From contig CAVUHW010000010.1 of the NCBI GenBank assembly GCA_963741205.1, forward strand, positions 32,001 to 96,000: a stretch of DNA of 64,000 nt, written 5' to 3'. The notes beneath the pieces are model-generated. The model searched no databases. It was given only the letters and a program-made list of their open reading frames with translations, and was not told the DNA's origin. The position numbers were made by a program, and so were the translations under genes. This document shows positions 31,485-53,520 of the stretch, piece after piece; the first letter of the stretch is position 1; every line of letters begins with the position of its first letter. Source of the stretch: Nitrospirota bacterium (GTDB lineage Bacteria; Nitrospirota; UBA9217).

Positions 31485-31560
31485 GGGCCCATAGCTCAGC
31501 TGGTAGAGCTACCGGCTCATAACCGGTTGGTCCCAGGTTCGAGTCCTGGTGGGCCCACCA
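31485..31560 (+). tRNA. tRNA with CAT anticodon, most likely tRNA-Ile2 (lysidine-modified)
   Basis: 76 nt cloverleaf GGGCCCA...CTCATAA...GGTTCGAGTCC...TGGGCCCACCA; Ile-type acceptor stem and location after rpoD. Confidence 0.92.
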
Positions 31561-32989: not shown

Positions 32990-33361
32990 TCAGAGCGGGT
33001 GAGATGATCGCTCTCCGGCAACGGGGGGAGGAAAGTCCGAGCTCCGCAGGGCAAGGCGGTCCCGAAACGGGACAGGGGGCGACCCCATGGACAGTGCCAC
33101 AGAAAAGAAGACCGCCCCGATACAGGGGTAAGGGTGAAACGGTGGGGCAAGAGCCCACCAGATTCCCGGGCGACCGGGAGTGCTTGGAAAACCCCGCCTG
33201 GAGCAAGACCACATAGGGAAGCGTCCCCCGCAAGGGGGTAAGGACGGCCCGTCCGAGACTTCCGGGTAGGTCGCATGAGCCTTCGAGCAATCGGGGGCCT
33301 AGATAAATGATCATCACCCCGAGCGATCGGGGGACAGAACTCGGCTTACGGCCCGCTCTGA
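32990..33361 (+). ncRNA. rnpB: RNase P RNA (type A)
   Basis: GAGGAAAGTCC, AGTGCCACAGAAA, GGGTGAAACGG, ACAGAACTCGGCTTA; terminal P1 tcagagcggg/cccgctctga. Confidence 0.97.
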
Positions 33362-33377
33362 TTTTTTTGTTTTCACG

Positions 33378-43758: not shown

Positions 43759-43880
43759 TCTCCGAGTGACGTTCGTATGAAAAAAACGGACAACAAGGCA
43801 TCGGTCATCTCGCAAGAATGAGTCCAACTGCGCTGACATCCTGATGAAAATAACAAGAAATGTCAAGGGGGACATACACG

Positions 43881-44781
43881 ATGGAAAACAGAAAAATCAG
43901 GAAAGTATTCAAGAGCAAGCCTACTCTCGAAGGAGCGGGAGTCCATCTCAGACGGGTATTCGGAAACAGCGAGGTCCCGCTGTTCGATCCATTCCTGATG
44001 CTCGACGATTTCCGCAATACCGACCCCTATCAGTATATCAAGGGGTTTCCCTGGCACCCCCATCGAGGCATCGAGACGATCACGTACGTGCTCAAGGGCG
44101 ACGTGGAGCACGGCGACAGCATGGGCAACAAGGGCGTTATCACGTCGGGAGACATGCAGTGGATGACCGCGGGAAGTGGCATCATCCACCAGGAGATGCC
44201 GCAGGGAGACGACAACGGGGTCATGGAGGGATTTCAGCTCTGGGCCAACCTCCCAAAAGCCGACAAGATGATGGACACCCCGGTACCGCGATATCAAAAG
44301 CTCGCAGGTGCCGGAAGTTGTGACGAAGAGCGGCGCGAAGATCAAGGTCATCTGCGGGACCGTGGAGGGCAGGCAGGGGCCGGTCAGGGACATCGTCATC
44401 GATCCCGAATATCTCGACGTTTCCCTCCCGGCCCTTTCCGAGTTTGTCCATCAGACCCCGCGCGGCCACACGGTCTTTGCCTATGTCATCGGGGGAAAGG
44501 GAGTCTTCTGCAATGAGAAGAACCCCTTCGCCTACGATGCCCTAGGGGAGAACTATTTCGACATGAAGCGCGATCCCTACATCCACAACGGGACGGCCGT
44601 GCTCTTCGGCGACGGCGATCAGGTGACGGTCTCGGCCCAGGGCGAACCCGTCCGCTTTCTGCTCATATCCGGCAAGCCAATCGGCGAGCCCGTGGCCTGG
44701 TACGGTCCGATCGTGATGAATACGGAGGAGGAACTGGAAGTCGCGTTTGAAGAGTATCAGAACGGTACGTTCATTAAGTAA
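43881..44781 (+). CDS. Pirin family protein; frameshifts near 44280-44305
   Basis: DPFLMLD, GFPWHPHRGIETITY, QWMTAGSGIIHQE, FQLWANLP, GPIVMNT. Confidence 0.92.
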
Positions 44782-44859
44782 GGCGTCAGTAACGCTGCAT
44801 ACAATCCGTATAGAACCTTATGAAGAGAGGGAGAGGAGAGAACAATGAAGCCATAACTT

Positions 44860-45040
44860 CACCGGCTTGGCATAGTTTGGGAGCCAGGCTGGCTTGAAAG
44901 TATTGCGAAGTACTACTGGAATATCGCAGTCTTATCAATCTAACGCAGCCGCATAGTTATAGATATTGTCGAGGACCGTGATGGCGCCAAAGAACAACAG
45001 ATTACATTCGTAACTTTCATCGATTCCTGCATCCTGTACG
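44860..45040 (-). pseudogene. Degraded gene remnant paralogous to 58457-58693
   Basis: Minus strand VQDAGIDESYECNLLFFGA versus LQDVGLDESYKWNVLFFGA. Confidence 0.5.
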
Positions 45041-45124
45041 TGTTAAATCCCACTCCAAATGGAGAGCAGGTCCTTCCAGCCCACTAAAAAGCCTCCTTTA
45101 TGGAGGCTCATTGATTGGATGCTT

Positions 45125-45523
45125 CTATTTTGTATATTCTCCCCGGTAGGTAATGGCATTAATGACGGCACCCTGAGGGTCCTGAATGACGCAAAACCGT
45201 CCGACATTCGGTATGTCCTGAGGCGGCACCAATAGTCGGGCGCCAAGCTGCTCTGCTGTCCGCGCCGTCAGGTCAACATCATCGACGGTTACATAGGCGC
45301 CCCACATAGGATGCATCCCCGGGGACTCTTTTGGAATCGCCATGATTCCACCAATCCTGTTGCCTCCAGCTTTGACCTCCGTGTAAGCCATGCCGGGCAT
45401 GAACATATCCTCCACCTCCCAGCCGAACAACTTTGCGTAAAATGCCTTTGCTGCTGCGACATCTGTCGTCATCAGTTCGCACCAACTGAACGCACCGTGT
45501 TGCCTGAATTGCTCCATGTTCAT
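45125..45523 (-). CDS. VOC/glyoxalase family protein
   Basis: FSWCELMTTD, FYAKLFGW, VGRFCVIQDPQGA. Confidence 0.9.
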   Translation of the reverse strand: MNMEQFRQHGAFSWCELMTTDVAAAKAFYAKLFGWEVEDMFMPGMAYTEVKAGGNRIGGIMAIPKESPGMHPMWGAYVTVDDVDLTARTAEQLGARLLVPPQDIPNVGRFCVIQDPQGAVINAITYRGEYTK

Positions 45524-46355
45524 TTCCTCCTTATGGTGGTGCTGGATGAACAGCCCTTCTTGCCTATTGTTATTTTAGTATAGCGGATTTTTTAATCTAT
45601 TGCAGCGAGCTCTTGATCACACTTTCCATCACCTTTCCGCTCACTTCTTTGGCACCCATTTCCCGTGCGATTTATCCCGCACTGTACATCGATTCCTCCC
45701 AACTCATTAACCCTGAAAAGCCGGAACCGACAAGATTGGCGATGGTGAAGAAATAAAGCGGGCTAAGGCATGATGCCCTGGAACTCTCAGTCACCGGCAT
45801 CGCCGTCAATTGTCAGCGAAAAGAAAGAAGGGCTCCTAATATAAACAGTATAGGAGTCCTTCAGTTTGTTGTGATGTGATAGGAAAGTTACCACTGGTAT
45901 TTGTTAGAGTTTAAATCTATTGAATCTTGCGACCTTGTAGTATACGCCGCAAGTTCCAACAAATGAAACTCCCGTGATAATCATTCTGTATCTGTTGACG
46001 TTGCGCTTATCCGTAAAACCCACACTTCATGTCGTCGCGCCAGGTCAAGCCTGGGAAAGGTGGTGGACCAGAAGCCGAAACCTTTCGTCGTGATTCTGTA
46101 GGTAATCAATCCTACCTGGTAAAGCCTGGTCAGCAGCCAGAAGCGAGTCTTGCATGCGCCTAGGTGACTATGTGTGTGAAGCGTAGACAGCTACTGCAAA
46201 AGCCGTGTGATTGAGCCCCGAAATAGCCTCGTGGGAGCTTTCGCCCTCGACATAGCGGGAGCAGCATCGATCGTGCAGTATTGACCTTGCACGACCGATC
46301 CTACCGGGGTCAGAGAGCAGGGCATATGCAGAAGAGGATCACCCAGGAACCTGGG

Positions 46356-48291
46356 GAAAGCGCCGGGATAAACCGGCATAGAGTAGGGAATGAAAGAGTC
46401 CTACGTGAAAGGATGAGCTGATCCATCACGGCCCCGAGTCATGCGCGGGCGGTCGCGAGGCTGCACGTGAAGCGTTGACAGGGGAAGCATAGGCCAGCCA
46501 ATGAGCTCCGAAATCACCCCTTCGGGGTGCCGACCACGTCCCAGGAACGGGAAGGCAACATGGATAACGGCGATAAACAGCCAGTCGTAGTCCGGCCCCG
46601 CGGAGTCTGAGACCCTGTGCATGTGCTTACACTCTATGTTCGAGAACCGGGAGAGCTCAGCAGTTCCTGCCGTTAAATCACATGGCGGCAGGACGGCAAG
46701 GGAAGGCCAGTGGCCGTAATCCTTGCATGCACGCTGCTGAGCAGTCTGACATCGGCGTACTACCGAAGAAGGGGCCGAACAAAATGGTGTGCTCCCATGC
46801 CATGGCGGAGGTTCTGGAGGGAAGGCTGATGACCAAGGGGAAATTCTGAAGAGTCGTCTGCGACCTGTACGCGGAGACAGGAGGAAGCATTGAACGGACT
46901 TGACAGGATACGTGAGGCAGCGGTAAGGGACAAGAAACTTCGGTTCACCAATTTGATGCATCATATCACGGATGAAATGCTCCGAGATGCCTACTCTGCG
47001 CTCAAGCGCAACGCGGCATGCCGGAGTAGACGATATGACATGGCATGAGTATGGTGAGCGCCTGGAGAGCCGGATAGCGGATCTCCATGGCCGTGTGCAG
47101 AGTGGCAGGTATCCGGGCGAAGCCCTCGAAACGGGTTTGGATACCGAAACCGGACGGTCGTCAACGGCCGATCGGCATTGCCGTGCTGGAAGATAAGATA
47201 CGTTGAACAGGCGGTGGTATGGGTACTCAATCAGATCTATGAGCAGGACTTCCTCGGTTTCAGCTACGGATTTCGACCTGAACGCAGCCAACATAACGCG
47301 TTGGATGCAATCTGGGTCGGCATCAAGCAACGGAAGGTAAAATGGGTGCTGGATGCCGACATCAAGAGCTTTTTCGACACGATAAATCATGCGTGGCTGA
47401 TGAAGTTCCTAGAGCATCGCATCGCAGACCCTCGGATGCTCCGCCTGATCCGGAAGTGGCTCAGAGCCGGGGTATCAGAGGATGGCAAGTGGTCAAGAAC
47501 AGAAGTGGGCACGCCGCAAGGGTCGGTGATATCGCCTTTGCTCAGCAACATCTACCTGCATTATGTTCTTGACGAGTGGGTACAATCTTGGCGAAAGAAC
47601 GAGGCGCACGGTGAAATGATCATCGTGCGCTACGCGGATGACTTCGTCATGGGTTTTCAGCACCTGCATGAAGCGAAACGATTTCTTGAGGAAATGAAGG
47701 AGCGATTTGCCCAATACGGCCTGGAAATCCATAGTGAAAAGACCCGACTCATCGAGTTCGGACGATTTGCGGAATCAAATCGTACTGAGCGAGGAGAGAA
47801 AAAGCCTGAAACATTTGACTTTCTTGGGTTCACGCACATTTGCAGCCGAACCCTCAAGGGCAATCATTTCACGATTCATCGTAAGACAATCGCCAAGCGT
47901 CTTCGGGCAAAGCTCAAAGAAGTGAGGGAAGAGGTCATACGCAGACGGCATGAGCCAGTACCGGTACTTGGTAAATGGCTTCGTTCAGTCGTGCAAGGTC
48001 ACCTCAACTACTTTGCGGTGCCCGGCAACACAACGGCAATTAAGGCGTTCCGCAGGGAAATCAACAAGGCATGGCTATACGCGTTGAGGCAACGCAGCCA
48101 GAAGTCCAGTTATCTACCGTGGGACCGAATCAAACTCTTAATTGCGACGTGGATACCTACAGCCATAATACTGCACCCGTACCCAAGCCAGAGGCTTCGC
48201 GTGAACTACCCGAGGTAAGAGCCGTGTGAAGTAATACTTCTCGCACGGATCCGTGCGGGGGGCGTCTGGCAACGGACGTCCCTACCGCGAT
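46356..48291 (+). mobile_element. Group II intron B (class E-like) nested in domain I of intron A
   Basis: Removing it restores GGAACCTGGG|AGGTC; DV gagccgtgtgaagtaatacttctcgcacggatc; 3' end cctaccgcgat; EBS1-like CCCAGG at 46540-46545. Confidence 0.88.
46890..48218 (+). CDS. ltrA: Intron B reverse transcriptase/maturase, no endonuclease domain; about 3 frameshifts in the 5' part
   Basis: RBS aggagg + TTG; RFTNLMHHI, IPKPDGRQRPIGI, SYGFRP, DIKSFFD, GTPQG, YADD, FDFLGF. Confidence 0.9.
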
Positions 48292-48559
48292 AGGTCTTGT
48301 TACTCCGTTTCTAAATGCCGGTGGGGATGACGGAACGAATAACTCCAGGCCTCAAGCGTCTGCGCAGAGATGTTCGAGGAGGTGCGTAATGGCACGAAAC
48401 AAAACGATCAGCGCGAGAAACGGTATCGCCAACTGAAGGAAACGAAAGGCGGCGAGATGGGAAGCAAGACGTCGTAGCGCCTTCATAGTACCGATGAGGC
48501 AGGGGAACGAATCCAATCGGACCCTGCGGAGGTAAGGGGGGCGTCATGTTGTAGAACCG

Positions 48560-49093
48560 TTGATGGGAAAGACAGAGGATGCGATGGAATCCGGAAATAC
48601 AGTCTACACGAAACAGCAACGGATAGCAGAACTCGCGAGGATTCACCCTGATGTAAGTTTCACGTCTCTCGCCCACCACATTGATTTAGTGTGGCTCTAT
48701 GAAGCATTCGGTCGAACGCGGAAGGACGGAGCGACGGGCATAGACAACGTGACAGCAGAGGAGTACGAGCAAGAGTTAAACACGAATCTGCGATCACTGT
48801 TGGAACGCGCCAAATCGGGGAAGTACTATGCGCCACCGGTACTACGGGCGCATATCCCGAAAGACCCGGCAAAGAAGGAAACCCGTCCTATCGGTATACC
48901 GACGTTCGAGGATAAGGTGCTTCAGAGGGCCTGGCAAATGGTGCTGGAGCCACTATATGAACAGGAATTTCTGGACTGCTCATACGGGTTCCGGACAGGG
49001 CGTTCCGCCCACGACGCGTTGCAATCGTTGTGGAAGCAGATGATGGATATAGGCGGATGCTGGATCATCGACCTCGATATTCGGAAGTTTTTC
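48560..49093 (+). CDS. ltrA: Intron A reverse transcriptase, 5' segment (interrupted at DIRKFF|D)
   Basis: FTSLAHHI, GIDNVT, IPK..RPIGIPTFEDK, SYGFR, DLDIRKFF. Confidence 0.9.
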
Positions 49094-49749
49094 GTGCGCC
49101 AGGGTAAGCCCGGCGCTTTCAGCGGGTGCAATTCCCGCCCCGGCAAGGGGAATGAGCCGCCTCACCGGGAATCGAGTCTTGGGCTCATGAAGGCAACGAC
49201 ATGAGTTAAGCGTAGACAGAGCGATGTCCAGGCCGTAACGCAAGTGAAGCGATAGAGCCTCGTGATACATCCGGAGGCCGACAGGGTCGAAAACCTGGAA
49301 GGCTACAGTAGGCGACGAAAAAGGGCGATGGTCGTTGGAGACTCCGGCGGGGTCTGAGAGCACGGCATGGGCAGAAACGGAAGCGTCATGGAACCTGGGA
49401 GATCCACCGCCGTCTCGGTCTGGCGTACAGACCGAGTATGTCTACCGAAAGGACCATCCTGAGGGAGAGAAACGCGACGGTGGAAGTCGGACCGCTGATA
49501 GTACTCGGAGTGCGGGAAAGCCGCATACAGGGGGAAGCGGCGGGGCAGGTTGAGTTGCTGGTCCGGGGAAACATTACCTACACTCAGAGGTAGGAGCACA
49601 ATGTCTACACAACCGGATCAGATCGATGGGTATGACGTTCACCGAACGAGTGCAACCTGGGGAGCCCGTTGCGGGAAATTCGCACGGCGGGTTCTGCGAG
49701 GGGGGACAGGCACAAGAGTACAATACTCAAGGCCTGTCCCTACCCCACC
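49094..49749 (+). mobile_element. Group II intron C, ORF-less (about 656 nt) relative of intron D
   Basis: GTGCGCCAGGG start; DI-DIII nearly identical to D; domain IV reduced to RBS plus MSTQPDQI remnant; DV gagcccgttgcgggaaattcgcacggcgggttc; ends ctaccccacc. Confidence 0.9.
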
Positions 49750-51676
49750 GTGCGCCAGGGTAAGCCCGGCGCTTTCAGCGGGTGCAATTCCCGCCCCGGC
49801 AAGGGGAATGAGCCGCCTCACCGGGAATCGAGTCTTGGGCTCATGAAGGCAACGACATGAGTTAAGCGTAGACAGAGCGATGTCCAGGCCGTAACGCAAG
49901 TGAAGCGATAGAGCCTCGTGATACATCCGGAGGCCGACAGGGTCGAAAACCTGGAAGGCTACAGTAGGCGACCGTAACAGGCGATGGTCGTTGGAGACTC
50001 CGGCGGGGTCTGAGAGCACGGCATGGGCAGAAATGGAAGCGTCATGGAACCTGGGAGATCCATCGCCGTCTCGGTCTGGTTGTCACAGACCGAGTATATC
50101 TACCGAAAGGACCATCCTGAGGGAGATAAACGCGACGGTGGAAGTCGGACCCGCTGATAGTACTCGGAGTGCGGGAAAGCCGCATACAGGGGGAAGCAGT
50201 GGGGCAGGTTGAGTTGCTGGTCCAGGGAAACATTCCCTTCACGCAGAGGTAGGAACCGAATGTCCACACAACTGGATCAGATCAAGGGGAAGGCAAAGTC
50301 GGACCCGAAGCTACGCTTCACATCACTGGCGCACCTGCTCACTCCAGCGTTTCTTAGGGAGACATGGAAACAGATGAACCGGCGTGGGGCGAGCGGAATC
50401 GATGGCGAGACGACGAAGGAGTTTGGGCAAGACCTGGACGCACGGGTTCAATCTCTGAGCGAACGCTTGAAGCAAGGGGCCTACAAGGCTCCACCGGTAC
50501 GCCGAGTGGAAATCCCCAAAGGACCTGGCAGGGAAGGGACAAGACCGCTCGGGATTCCGACGGTCGAAGACCGTCTGCTGCAAAGAGCGGTAGCTCGGAT
50601 ATTGGAAGCGGTGTTCGAGGCGGATTTCTTGGACTGCTCATATGGATTTCGGCCGGGGCGCAATCCCCACGATGCCCTGCGGACATTGCGCACGATCATC
50701 GTCACGAAGAAGGTAGGACACTTGTTCGAAGCTGATATCCGGGGATACTTCAACCACATCCAGCATGAATGGCTGCAAAAGATGGTTGCTCATCGAATTG
50801 CGGACCCGGTCATCCTGCGCCTGATTGGCAAATGGCTGAAAGCGGGCTACATGATGGGAGGAGTCGTTACGCGAACCGAGGAAGGATCGCCACAAGGCGG
50901 GCCGATCAGCCCGATCTTGGCTAACATCTACCTGCACTACGTGCTTGATCTCTGGTTTGAAAAGAAGGTCAAGCCGATGTGCCAGGGTGAGGCGTATCTG
51001 ACGAGATTTGCGGATGATTTTGTGGTGAACTTTCAATATGGCAGAGATGCGGAAGGGTTCAGGAACGAGCCTGACGGATCGATTCGAGAAATTCGGGCTG
51101 GAATTGGCGGAAGAAAAGACGCGGCTGCTGCGCTTCGGACGATTCGTACGTGCGGACCTCGCAAAGACCGGCGATAAGCCGGATACGTTTGACTTTCTTG
51201 GCTTCAAGCATGTCTGTGGTATAGACCAAGGTGGGAAGTTTGCCTTGGTGCGGATTCCGTGCGTCAAAAGCTGCCGAAAGTTCTTGGCCAAGACCAAGGA
51301 ATGGCTCAAGGGGCATATACATTGGAAGCGGCGTGACCAGCAAAGTCAGTTGAAGATGATGCTGCACGGCTTCTACCAATACTTTGGACTGCATCACTGC
51401 AAGCCGAAACTCGACATGGTACGCAGCGCAGTACAGCTCCAATGGATTCGGACGCTACGGAGAAAGAGCCAACGTCACCGACTATACTGGTGCTACCTTA
51501 ATAGCCGAGACTGGTTCAAATTACCGTATGCGGTATCAACACGCCACGCGACGGTTTGACTTTCATTCATCCATTGAGTGCAATCTGGGGAGCCCGTTGC
51601 GGGAAAGCCGCACGGCGGGTTCTGCGAGGGGGGACAGGCACAAGAGGACAACACTCAAGGTCTGTCTCTACCCACC
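49750..51676 (+). mobile_element. Group II intron D (class F-like), directly head-to-tail after C within the RT gene of A
   Basis: GTGCGCCAGGG start; RT ORF; DV gagcccgttgcgggaaagccgcacggcgggttc; ends ctacccacc, after which RT A resumes (T-M-V-H). Confidence 0.9.
50260..51559 (+). CDS. ltrA: Intron D reverse transcriptase/maturase, no endonuclease domain; frameshift near 51065
   Basis: RFTSLAHLL, RPLGIPTVEDR, SYGFRPG, DIRGYFN, GSPQGG, FADD, FDFLGF. Confidence 0.9.
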
Positions 51677-52503
51677 ATACGATGGTCCATAAACACATCA
51701 GGGAGATACTCAAGAGGCGGGTGAGTGACGGAGTAATAACGAGACTCATAGATAAGTGGTTGAAGGCCGGTGTATGGGAGGCAGGAAACATCAGTTACCC
51801 GGAAAAGGGTACTCCTCAAGGCGGCGTGATATCCCCCATGCTGAGTAATATTTATCTTCATGAGGTACTGGACCTGTGGTTTGAGAAGGAAGTAAAACCA
51901 CGCCTCCGCGGCAAAGCGTTTCTGATTCGGTATGCCGATGATGCTGTGTTGGGATTTGCAACCGAAGACGATGCCCGGAGAGTAATGGAAGTGCTTCCGA
52001 AGCGGTTTGCCCGATATGGCTTGACGATCCACCCGGAGAAGACCCGTGTGGTGAGGTTCGTAAAGCCGGAAGACATCAACTCGGGGGGCCACAGCCAGGA
52101 CAAGGATAACACGTTCAACTTTCTAGGATTCACTCACTACTGGGCAAAATCCCGTAAAGGTACAGCGGTGATCAAGCGAAGTACCGAGAAGAGCCGGTTC
52201 ATGCGAGCGCTTATGAAGATTAAGGAGTGGTGCAGAACCAATCGGCACAACCCACTGAAGGAGCAGCATAAGACGCTGAACCAGAAACTTCGAGGCCACT
52301 ACGCCTATTACGGGATCAGAGGCAACAGCCAGGCATTGGGGCACTTCTACCACAAGGTGAGACGGCTCTGGCGCAAATGGCTACAGCGAAGGTCGTGCGA
52401 TGGTAGTATCCCGTGGGATAACTTCGCACTACTTGAAAAGGTCTATCCACTTGCGCCAGCGAGAATCGTTCACTCCGCATACTTACGCAAAGCTACAGCA
52501 TGA
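51677..52503 (+). CDS. ltrA: Intron A reverse transcriptase, 3' segment
   Basis: TMVHKH, KWLKAG, GTPQGGVISP, YADD, FNFLGF, maturase X motif LRGHYAYY. Confidence 0.9.
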
Positions 52504-53520
52504 AGAACCGAATGCGTTAATCGCGCACGTTCGGGTCTGTGGGGGGCTGGGGCAGGTGACTGCCCTGGCCTACCTGGCTAACATTCAGTGCACTGATCAT
52601 CCTGAAACGAACGTTCCTAGCCTCTCGTAAAAACGTGAACTTCCTGTCGTAACTGGTACCCTTCATCCTCATCATCTCACAAGAAGGATCTCTTCCTCCC
52701 GATGATATTCTGCATTTCAAGATCCTCAACTTCAGCGTACCCCTAAATGTTGTCAGGAAAAAAGAAGCTAATAATCAGGGATTCCATGATTGACCAAATA
52801 CAATATTTCCGTCATATTTAATAAAAACACAATAACAGCCAATACAGTATCACAGTAGAACTTATGATGTCTTACATGAAAGTTGCGGAACGGTGCAATC
52901 GCACCCTGGCGTTCATGCTGTTAATCGCGACCCGCACGCTCAGTTTGACCATGTCGCCTGCGTTAGTCGACAGCGACAAGCGCATCGTGAGAGTCATGAC
53001 CCAGAACATGGATGCGGGAACAGATCTGCTGTTCTTTTTTGCCTCTCCTTAGAACCTCAGTTGCGCAAAGGAGTGTACGTAAAATTAAGTCGAAACAAAA
53101 AAAATCTGCATTCCATCAGCTTCCCGTCAGGCCTCAGTAGTATAAGCATGTCATACGCACCAAGCGATGGAAAACACGAATTGTATTGGTGATTGCATAC
53201 CGAGGAAAGAAGGGAGGTGGCGAAGAGATCGATAAGAACAGAGGCAACACGCAAGAGGCAGCAAGGATTTTCGGGAGAATGGTCTTTCGGTCATCGATTG
53301 AAGAAAAATGTGGAATTGATATGGATGTTACATTTTTATTGAAGGAGGGCATGTAACATGAAAGCAACATTCGGCAAGAGATGGGCATTTGTGGTTTTTT
53401 GATGGTTTTTGCGTTACTGGCACCATGCTGGACGTCGGCGGAAACGAAATGCCAGGGGCAAACCAGCATTGGGAAATTCGATCGGCATCAGATCAGCGGT
53501 TTGCAGCAGGGGTATGGATT

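What the first reader, a model, noticed from the sequence alone, without database searches (positions are those of the whole stretch)
46034..52578. Four group II introns in one nest: host A invaded in both its ribozyme and its RT gene
Seen: removing B (46356-48291) restores A's domain I motif CCCAGGAACCTGGG|AGGTC. Removing C and D (49094-51676) rejoins A's RT across DIRKFF|(D)TMVH, with about 1 nt ambiguity at the junction. What remains is about 2026 nt, a normal intron length. There are three distinct RTs (YADD, FADD, YADD), none with an endonuclease domain. Known: bacterial and archaeal group II twintrons exist. Inference: A can fold only after B splices, and its maturase can be made only after C and D splice, so this is an ordered splicing cascade.
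Basis: partly seen in the sequence, partly recalled or inferred. Interest (0 to 1): 0.85.

Follow-up and report, generated by a model that had tools for sequence, protein, structure and literature searches.

The report
Four nested bacterial group II introns
Four self-splicing mobile introns sit inside one another in non-coding DNA of a soil bacterium because two of them specialise in inserting into other introns, a pattern already known from archaea and cyanobacteria.

Summary
The nest is real in the sequence. Rfam finds four 5' ribozyme halves and four domain V/VI ends in nested order. Same-genus genomes and metagenome contigs hold intron A without B and without C/D, with the predicted empty junctions. 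C is an ORF-less derivative of D and lies directly 5' of it. Each inner intron's EBS1 loop pairs with the bases before its insertion point, and this pairing covaries across relatives. D belongs to a widespread lineage: of 47 relatives, 37 sit in conserved RT codons and 5 in a transposase gene. So the nest was built by site-specific retrohoming into a resident intron, as in Methanosarcina and Thermosynechococcus. The "ordered cascade" is only partly supported. C must leave before D can pair with its exon, and A's RT needs both gone. But B lies at the domain I/II junction rather than in a helix, and there are no splicing data. As assembled, B, D and spliced A all carry 1-nt frame errors. These may be consensus errors, since a nearby pirin gene has one too. 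Known kind; moderate interest.

The parts
46034..46355 (+). Intron A, 5' segment (domain I up to its closing strand CCUGG-G). 5' end is GUCGCG. The EBS1 loop GACAUA at 46249-46254 pairs with the exon bases AUGUC before 46034.
   Evidence: RF02005 hit 46106-46319, 141 bits. The 5' end GTCGCGCC is shared by 4 of 4 A-type copies that have different flanks. EBS1:IBS1 pairs are 5, 6, 6, 6 of 6 in the four copies. An RNA contig of a 92% relative ends at 46034.
46356..48291 (+). Intron B (1936 nt). 5' end is GAAAGCG. The EBS1 loop CCCAGG at 46540-46545 pairs with A's CCUGGG. The IEP runs from TTG 46890 to TAA 48216-48218, with extra bases at 47019, 47111 and 47201. Domains V/VI are at 48217-48291.
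   Evidence: RF02005 171 bits and RF00029 35.3 bits. A joint 46355->48292 is present in contigs of 3 DNA runs and 1 RNA run. EBS1 covaries with the 5' exon in relatives. Three intact relatives lack the three extra bases.
48292..49093 (+). Intron A, middle segment: domains II-III, domain IVa and the N-terminal half of A's RT (ATG 48563 to ...DLDIRKFF).
   Evidence: Pfam RVT_1 profile positions 1-79. 88-90% identical to uninterrupted A copies in G037, G032 and G029.
49094..49749 (+). Intron C (656 nt), an ORF-less deletion derivative of the D lineage. EBS1 CGAAAA at 49288-49293. Inserted at A's RT codons FF|D.
   Evidence: RF02005 124.5 bits and RF00029 45.4 bits. Aligned to D, 613 of 655 positions are identical and the first 223 are identical; the ORF is deleted.
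49750..51676 (+). Intron D (1927 nt), directly abutting C. EBS1 CGAAAA at 49944-49949. The IEP runs from ATG 50260 to TGA 51557-51559, with one extra base at 51066/7 (FADD).
   Evidence: RF02005 124.2 bits and RF00029 40.0 bits. A 1658-nt contig of run X1 is identical but for 1 substitution and lacks the extra base. Four of 4 aligned relatives lack it.
51677..52578 (+). Intron A, 3' segment: the C-terminal half of the RT plus the maturase domain (TMVHKH... to TGA 52501-52503) and domains V/VI at 52503-52578. Domain V reads AAC where AGC is usual.
   Evidence: Pfam RVT_1 profile 86-204 and GIIM. RF00029 33.2 bits. An X3 contig covering 52458-52750 bridges the 3' junction. The domain V sequence is shared by 4 of 4 A copies.

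Best explanation
This is a nest of four endonuclease-less group II introns, built by successive site-specific retrohoming events into one resident intron that lies in non-coding DNA. Outer intron A is about 2027 nt when empty and inserted at ...CAUGUC|, which its EBS1 loop matches. B is a member of a lineage that changes targets by changing its EBS1 loop. This copy carries CCCAGG, complementary to CCUGGG at the 3' end of A's domain I, and it sits at A's domain I/II junction. D belongs to a widespread lineage whose normal homing site is the codons of a conserved reverse-transcriptase motif (...[F/Y]F|D), so it landed in A's RT gene. C is an ORF-less derivative of the same lineage and sits in the same site directly 5' of D. 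That is possible because the 5'-exon half of the target persists at D's 5' junction. Predicted RNA processing (inferred, not shown): B can splice at any time; C must splice before D, because only then is D's exon pairing recreated; A's RT/maturase becomes translatable only after both have gone; A is removed last. Whether the copies in this cell are still active is open, because all three RT frames carry 1-nt errors in the assembly.
For: Anatomy: four 5' ribozyme hits and four domain V/VI hits in nested order. Empty sites: 4 of 4 A-type relatives are contiguous across the B site, and 3 of 3 are contiguous across the C/D site as TTTTTC-G-ATACG. The joint 46355->48292 appears in 3 DNA runs from at least 2 studies, and the joint 49094->51677 in 1 DNA run. 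Target pairing for the B type: 8 of 9 distinct copies have a 6/6 EBS1:IBS1 match and one has 5/6, against 2 of 72 mismatched copy pairs reaching 6/6. A type: 5, 6, 6, 6 of 6. D type: the EBS1 loop changes with the site (CGAAAA:UUUUCG, CGUAGUG:CACUACG, CAUAUUG:CAAUAUG). Lineage habit of D: 80 relatives were fetched. Forty-nine had a recognisable 5' end and 47 of those had at least 20 nt of flank. By a pattern on the 15 upstream residues, 21 lie after D..x[FY]F, 16 after [YF]LH[YH], 5 after GGLHHxY and 5 elsewhere. Twelve of 12 RT-site loci scanned have an outer intron ribozyme 0.8-1.2 kb upstream on the same strand, from three Rfam classes. In run X1 a 99.9% identical D sits in a different RT gene at the same codons. 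Independent bridging: X1 spans the B/A 3' junction (48253-48514) and X3 spans A's 3' junction. Literature: nests of up to five introns built by repeated homing into other introns in Methanosarcina (PMC4424553, passages); ORF-less inner introns mobilised by the outer intron's protein in T. elongatus (PMC2882425, passages).
Against: As assembled, none of the three RT frames is open end to end, so the nest may be inert. The C-D tandem has no outside support: 0 of 49 relatives with a recognisable 5' end show a second 5' end in the same locus, and 0 of 20 metagenome matches to the junction pattern are introns. Only 2 of the 8 junctions are seen bridged in the pieces listed (224 pieces were not shown). 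The first 223 nt of C and D are identical while the rest differs by about 7%, which could reflect gene conversion or an assembly or polishing effect. L020, a B-type copy, shows no EBS1 match to its flank. The D-lineage site classes rest on a regular expression; only 12 host genes were checked for an outer ribozyme. No C/D-type intron occurs in the other 63 genomes of the order.
Confidence: 0.75

Rival explanations
1. One reading: a working, obligatorily ordered splicing cascade in which B must leave before A can fold, and C and D must leave before A's maturase is made.
For: A's RT is split at Pfam RVT_1 profile position about 80-85. D lacks exon pairing until C is removed. Relatives of B (3 of 3), D (19 of 21) and A (L046) have intact RT frames. 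The frame errors here may be consensus errors, because a pirin gene 1.8 kb upstream has an extra base that 5 of 5 relatives lack, and an X1 contig of D lacks D's extra base.
Against: No RNA evidence for any step. B sits one base beyond the helix that closes domain I rather than inside a helix, so folding of A with B in place is not excluded. As assembled all three frames are broken. The flanking DNA is non-coding, so nothing selects for the cascade apart from the introns themselves.
Confidence: 0.25
2. Graveyard: the nest is real DNA but the introns are dead. The 1-nt insertions are true mutations and nothing splices or moves any more.
For: In the nest there are five 1-nt indels in 6.5 kb. All 6 RT genes found in this genome look split or broken. 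By contrast, the genome as a whole keeps 493 open frames of 500 aa or more and 19 of 1000 aa or more.
Against: The indels are not accompanied by stop codons or other decay in the remaining roughly 1000 nt of B's frame, and B's three insertions cluster within 182 nt. A conserved cellular gene next door has the same kind of single-base insertion. A near-identical D in run X1 lacks the insertion. All four ribozyme halves match the full Rfam model.
Confidence: 0.3
3. Assembly artefact: the contig is a chimera of several intron copies from a metagenome, in whole or (more plausibly) only at the C-D tandem.
For: The genome is a binned assembly (84% complete, 4.9% contamination). Related introns are abundant in the same kind of sample. 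The tandem is unsupported elsewhere. The 5' 223 nt of C and D are identical. Contig C10 has a higher G+C (0.61) than the rest.
Against: A chimera that switches between homologous copies would not produce precise insertions that restore a motif and a reading frame when removed. It also would not give each inner intron an EBS1 that matches its site. A's three segments are each 88-91% identical to the same uninterrupted relatives. Two junctions are bridged by other runs' contigs. C has its own deletion and about 6% divergence from D.
Confidence: 0.1

Closest known systems
Nested group II introns of Methanosarcina acetivorans (Dai & Zimmerly 2003; seen only through passages of the review PMC4424553, and of PMC2882425; the paper itself is not held)
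   Same: Several introns nested in one locus. The flanking exons contain no coding ORFs. [quoted passage not shown] ORF-less and RT-encoding members are mixed.
   Different: This case is bacterial and from soil. All four introns match Rfam RF02005, a model that does not ring in M. acetivorans (control). One invader sits at a ribozyme domain junction rather than in the ORF. Two invaders lie in direct tandem at one site. Nesting depth is 2 here, against up to five introns nested there.
Thermosynechococcus elongatus twintrons (Mohr et al. 2010, PMC2882425, passages)
   Same: An ORF-less intron derived from an ORF-containing relative inserts at a conserved site inside another intron's ORF region. 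[quoted passage not shown] Inner and outer introns splice and move separately.
   Different: There the site lies between the first two ATGs, so the protein can still be made. Here the site splits the RT domain itself. There a single inner intron is present; here there are three inner introns of two lineages.
Trichodesmium Tery_4732 twintron (Pfreundt & Hess 2015, PMC4649490, abstract and outline)
   Same: A bacterial group II twintron of similar total size (5400 nt there, 6545 nt here). Sequential splicing was demonstrated there.
   Different: That twintron interrupts a conserved protein-coding gene, and its splicing was shown in vivo. Here the host DNA is non-coding and nothing is shown at the RNA level.
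RmInt1 of Sinorhizobium meliloti, homing into the insertion sequence ISRm2011-2 (PMC1802570, start of abstract in the listing only)
   Same: An endonuclease-less intron whose natural homing site lies in another mobile element. One branch of the D lineage likewise sits at the C-terminus of an rve-family transposase.
   Different: The D RT fragment is only about 40% identical to the Sinorhizobium plasmid hits. Class membership was not established.

Membership tests
Group II intron retroelement | 5' ribozyme domains matching a group II covariance model | tested here: met
   Four full-length RF02005 hits of 124-171 bits against a cut-off of 49.
Group II intron retroelement | Domain V/VI at the 3' end with a bulged branch-point A | tested here: met
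   RF00029 hits for all four. C (45.4 bits) and D (40.0 bits) reach the cut-off of 40. B (35.3) and A (33.2) fall below it but have E-values of 1e-5 and 3e-5 in local scans. A CUAC motif with the A lies 7-8 nt from each 3' end.
Group II intron retroelement | Domain V catalytic triad AGC (consensus recalled, not from a call) | tested here: inconclusive
   B, C and D read AGC. A reads AAC opposite a G, in 4 of 4 A-type copies that sit at different, EBS1-matched sites. The deviation is therefore a lineage trait of copies that appear to have moved, not a private lesion.
Group II intron retroelement | Typical termini 5'-GUGYG...AY-3' (consensus recalled; the review PMC4424553 notes introns with altered termini) | tested here: inconclusive
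   C and D start with GUGCG but end in ACC. A starts with GUCGCG and ends in GC (4 of 4 copies). B starts with GAAAGCG (10 of the 12 B-type copies listed) and ends in AU.
Group II intron retroelement | Intron-encoded protein with RT and maturase (X) domains in domain IV | tested here: met
   RVT_1 is found in A (two halves), B and D, and GIIM in A. No endonuclease domain is found. The frames are interrupted by 1-nt indels as assembled. C has no ORF.
Group II intron retroelement | EBS1 loop complementary to the last bases of the 5' exon | tested here: met
   A 5 of 6, B 6 of 6, C 6 of 7 as assembled. The pairing covaries across relatives. D has no match to C's 3' end and regains one only after C is removed.
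Twintron / nested intron array | The inner intron lies wholly inside the outer one, and precise removal restores the outer intron | tested here: met
   The B site and the C/D site are contiguous in uninterrupted relatives and in metagenome contigs. As assembled, one exon base (G) is missing at the C/D site.
Twintron / nested intron array | Sequential splicing of inner then outer intron shown at the RNA level | not testable with these tools
   Only contigs of one RNA run were laid. The B-less joint there is from a 92% relative and could be an uninvaded copy.
Methanosarcina-type nest (homing into other introns) | The invader's homing site is a conserved sequence of other group II introns | tested here: met
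   D lineage: 37 of 47 sites lie in two conserved RT motifs, and 12 of 12 sampled loci are inside an outer intron. B lineage: only this copy targets an intron; the other 9 distinct copies examined do not.
Methanosarcina-type nest (homing into other introns) | No coding ORF in the flanking exons | tested here: met
   No ORF of 60 aa or more crosses 46033/46034 or 52578/52579. The flank beyond the pirin gene is not conserved in 14 genus relatives.

The most novel reading that the evidence does not exclude
The D lineage is a cross-phylum clade of 'hyperparasitic' group II introns. It was seen here in Acidobacteriota and Proteobacteria records, among others. Its homing sites are the most conserved codons of other retroelements' reverse transcriptases: two different RT motifs, and in one branch the C-terminus of an IS transposase. 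Branches are retargeted from one motif to another by changes in EBS1. Nests like this one would then be its normal habitat, growing by recursion (triple nests in L071 and L077). Invasion would silence the host intron's maturase until the invader splices, which amounts to an intron-versus-intron conflict system common in soil bacteria.
Probability: 0.45. Interest if true: 0.6.

Novelty: new member of a known kind. Interest (0 to 1): 0.4.

Why it matters
The nest is a clean, well-bounded bacterial example of introns that live on other introns. It has matched empty sites in close relatives and readable EBS1/IBS1 covariation for all three lineages involved. It points to a widespread soil lineage that uses the coding conservation of RT motifs as an always-available landing site. 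It also offers natural material for testing three questions. How do ORF-less introns borrow maturases? Does invasion of a competitor's RT gene act as conflict or as refuge? Can ribozymes with unusual termini (GAAAGCG, GUCGCG) and an AAC in domain V still work? It does not change the picture of what group II introns can do.

Tried and rejected
1. Tandem junction elsewhere. I scanned metagenome contigs with a pattern for a D-type 3' end abutting a D-type 5' end. There were 20 matches. None of the 20 shows similarity to D on either side, so they are chance matches. The pattern was exact, so this does not show that tandems are absent.

2. Empty site for outer intron A. The flank 44300-46033 was searched in 15 genomes of the genus, G000 included. 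Only the pirin part (query positions 1-479) is conserved, so no empty site for A at this locus was found.

3. Similarity between the nest's flanks and the C9 locus. Only a 12-mer (GATCATCCTGAA, E 0.056) is shared. I treat this as not significant.

4. Class assignment. tblastn of D's RT against plasmids gives at most 51.5% identity, with generic 'ltrA' names. No class was assigned. The passages of PMC3552965 gave no diagnostic I could apply.

5. RNA evidence. RNA run X19 shows the B-less joint, but in a 92% relative, so it is not evidence of splicing. Parts of the stretch without cover in a given run are not interpreted.

6. Genome-wide indel rate. This was estimated only roughly, from open-frame lengths. 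No proper frameshift census was made.

7. MFE folds of A and B did not reproduce the domain I closing helix seen in 7 of 9 D-type folds. B's placement at the domain I/II junction therefore rests on homology.

8. Literature. Searches found no description of a bacterial lineage that homes into RT-motif codons. However, Dai & Zimmerly 2003 is not held and other subscription papers are missing. Supplements are closed, including the neighbourhood tables of PMC7306698, which says that other group II introns are the commonest neighbours of group II introns. I therefore do not claim that this is unreported. PMC12584367 was opened (outline) and not used.


Full report
**What is there.** Rfam finds four matches to the 5' ribozyme model RF02005 and four matches to the domain V/VI model RF00029 between 46034 and 52578, all on the + strand and in nested order. 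The parts are as follows.
- A runs from 46034 to 52578 and is split into three segments of 322, 802 and 902 nt.
- B is 46356-48291 (1936 nt).
- C is 49094-49749 (656 nt).
- D is 49750-51676 (1927 nt).

C aligns to D over its whole length: 613 of 655 positions are identical, and the first 223 are identical. C lacks the reading frame, so it is an ORF-less derivative of the D lineage lying in direct tandem 5' of D. Pfam finds RVT_1 in A (profile 1-79 before C and 86-204 after D), in B and in D. It finds the maturase domain in A and no endonuclease domain anywhere.

**Are the boundaries right?** Yes.
- The window's order contains 64 genomes. Same-genus genomes G037 (two copies), G032 and G029 hold A-type introns that are 88-91% identical, with neither B nor C/D. 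G007 holds an ORF-less A.
- Across the B site, 4 of 4 relatives read GGAACCTGGG AGGTCTTG without interruption.
- Across the C/D site, 3 of 3 relatives read AAGTTTTTC-G-ATACGATGG, that is ...KFFDTMVH.
- Contigs of public soil-metagenome runs show the same. A joint that skips exactly 46356-48291 is present in three DNA runs from at least two studies. A joint that skips C+D while keeping one G is present in one DNA run that holds a near-identical A.
- In run X1, a D copy differing by one substitution sits in a different RT gene at the same codons (...DLEKFF-G | intron | AC CGG GTC...). This fixes the insertion point as TTTTTCG|A and D's 3' end at 51676.

**How each intron found its place.** The hairpin loop at model positions about 150-160 is EBS1.
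- B type: 8 of 9 distinct copies have a loop hexamer fully complementary to the last six exon bases, and one matches 5 of 6. Only 2 of 72 mismatched copy pairs reach 6 of 6 (L033 was dropped as a duplicate of L018). L020's hairpin was not captured and shows no match by eye.
- The window's B carries CCCAGG against A's CCUGGG. The other B-type copies lie at unrelated, non-intron sites. This B is therefore a retargeted variant.
- A type: the four copies match their different flanks at 5, 6, 6 and 6 of 6 positions.
- C and D carry CGAAAA, which pairs with UUUUCG.

**The D lineage habitually lives in other introns.** I fetched 80 relatives of D's RT from species-representative genomes. The records are mostly Acidobacteriota, with some Paraburkholderia, Ralstonia, Bradyrhizobium and others.
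- Forty-nine of the 80 have a 5' end recognisable by blastn. Two were dropped for lack of flank, and the other 31, which are more distant, were not examined.
- Among the 47 examined, 21 lie after D..x[FY]F (the window's site), 16 after SPLLxNxYLH[YH] (another RT motif), 5 after LGGLHHxY and 5 elsewhere. EBS1 changes in step with the site.
- The LGGLHHxY host is an rve-family transposase.
- Of 16 loci scanned with Rfam, all 12 RT-site loci have an outer intron ribozyme 0.8-1.2 kb upstream on the same strand: RF02005 in 8, RF02003 in 3 and RF02001 in 1. L071 and L077 carry a third stacked 5' half. The 4 non-RT loci have only their own hit.

**Where B sits in A.** In 7 of 9 D-type sequences, the minimum-energy fold pairs nt 6-10 (CCAGG) with the CCUGG of the conserved motif GGAACCUGGGAG. 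L080 and L103 show a compensatory UCAGG:CCUGA change. A has the same two strands. By homology, B lies one base 3' of the helix that closes domain I, which is the domain I/II junction. This is an inference, because A's own folds did not show the helix.

**Can it work?** The logic of the RNA predicts an order.
- D's 5' neighbour is C's 3' end, which cannot pair with D's EBS1.
- After C leaves, the UUUUUC exon abuts D.
- A's RT is readable only after both have gone.

As assembled, however, the frames are broken.
- Spliced A is one base short and stops after 192 aa. It is open for 452 aa with a placeholder base.
- B has three extra bases relative to three intact relatives with frames of 442-460 aa.
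- D has one extra base relative to four aligned relatives. Nineteen of 21 relatives examined have frames of 432 aa or more.
- All six RT genes found in this genome look split.

The genome as a whole is not riddled with frameshifts: it has 493 open frames of 500 aa or more. Yet the pirin gene 1.8 kb upstream is split into its two Pfam domains by one extra base at 44277 that 5 of 5 relatives lack. The X1 contig of D also lacks D's extra base. I put the odds that these indels are consensus errors at about 60%. Raw reads would settle it.

**Comparison with what is known.**
- The review PMC4424553 (passages) describes Methanosarcina nests of up to five introns, with no coding flanks, built by repeated homing into other introns.
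- PMC2882425 (passages) describes T. elongatus ORF-less introns inserting at a conserved site in other introns' ORF regions and being mobilised in trans.
- PMC4649490 (abstract) shows sequential twintron splicing in Trichodesmium.
- PMC7306698 (passages) notes that the commonest neighbours of group II introns are other group II introns.

The window's nest is a new bacterial member of this known kind. Its particular features are an invader at a ribozyme domain junction, a tandem pair at one RT site, and membership of a widespread RT-motif-targeting lineage.

**Verdict.** Interest is moderate (0.4).

Noticed in passing
window 43860-44781 (+), extra base at 44277: A pirin gene is split into two frames. 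The N-terminal Pirin domain is in one ORF and the Pirin_C domain in the next. The cause is one extra A that 5 of 5 relatives, with intact 296-304 aa frames, lack. This is the same kind of single-base insertion as in the intron RT genes.
   Followed up: yes
G000 contigs C10, C49, C20: Contig C10, which holds the window, has G+C 0.61 against 0.48-0.60 for the other 49 contigs. The genome holds a second pirin copy at 88% identity on C49 and a third at 72% on C20. Possible paralogues, or a mixed bin (contamination 4.9%).
   Followed up: no
window 46356; L018, L020, L022, L024, L028, L038, L045, G000:C9: B-type introns begin with GAAAGCGCC instead of the usual GUGCG in 10 of the 12 copies listed (L019 and L027 have GTGCGCC). 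These copies lie at many different EBS1-matched sites, so the odd 5' end seems compatible with mobility.
   Followed up: partly
window 52505-52537; L046, L048, L049: A-type domain V reads GAACCG...CGGGUC, that is AAC opposite G where AGC opposite U is usual. This holds in 4 of 4 copies. A-type introns also start with GUCGCG and end in GC.
   Followed up: partly
G000:C9:6647-7310 (-): A 664-nt ORF-less B-like intron, 84% identical to B's ends. Its own EBS1 (UGAACU) matches its flank (AGUUCA). It lies in intergenic DNA downstream of small DUF-like ORFs. A near-identical A in run X2 is inserted about 40 nt downstream of the equivalent place (its flank ...GGATCTGCG CACTTCAT resembles C9's 3' flank).
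   Followed up: partly
G000:C12:14313-16225 (-), C14:39883-41850 (-), C45:29899-30514 (+): There are two further group II introns (C12 with one frameshift in its RT, C14 with many) and one more RT gene on C45 that also looks split between two frames. Counting these, 6 of 6 RT genes in the assembly are not open end to end.
   Followed up: partly
L074-L104 (D-lineage relatives): Sub-branches of the D lineage sit after the RT motif SPLLxNxYLH[YH] (16 loci, EBS1 CGUAGUG) and at the C-terminal LGGLHHxY of an rve-family transposase (5 loci, EBS1 CAUAUUG or CGUAUUG).
   Followed up: yes
L071 1741-6382; L077 1559-6202; L082: Three stacked intron 5' halves on one strand (RF02003, RF02005, RF02005) indicate triple-depth nests in other public Acidobacteriota genomes. 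L082 has a further RF02005 hit downstream.
   Followed up: partly
L048 (G032:C1) about 2272-2624; L047 (G037:C1) from about 2283: One A-type relative carries a 353-nt insert with long terminal inverted repeats (MITE-like) in its RT gene. Another A-type relative is cut off at nearly the same place by unrelated DNA.
   Followed up: no
L049 (G007:C6) 877-953: A c-di-GMP-I-GGC riboswitch-like match (51.8 bits, below the cut-off of 59) lies just upstream of an ORF-less A-type intron.
   Followed up: no
window 52917-53043 and 45934-45993: Short dispersed repeats flank the nest. A roughly 127-nt element downstream has 88-90% identical copies on C3 and C32. A 61-nt stretch upstream matches C39 at 85%.
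   Followed up: no
window 47019, 47111, 47201: The three extra bases in B's RT are all +1 and are spaced 92 and 90 nt apart, so the frame returns to the original after 182 nt. The regular spacing is unexplained.
   Followed up: no
window 32992-33363 and 31485-31557: Bacterial RNase P RNA class A (274.7 bits) and a tRNA gene lie upstream in the window.
   Followed up: no
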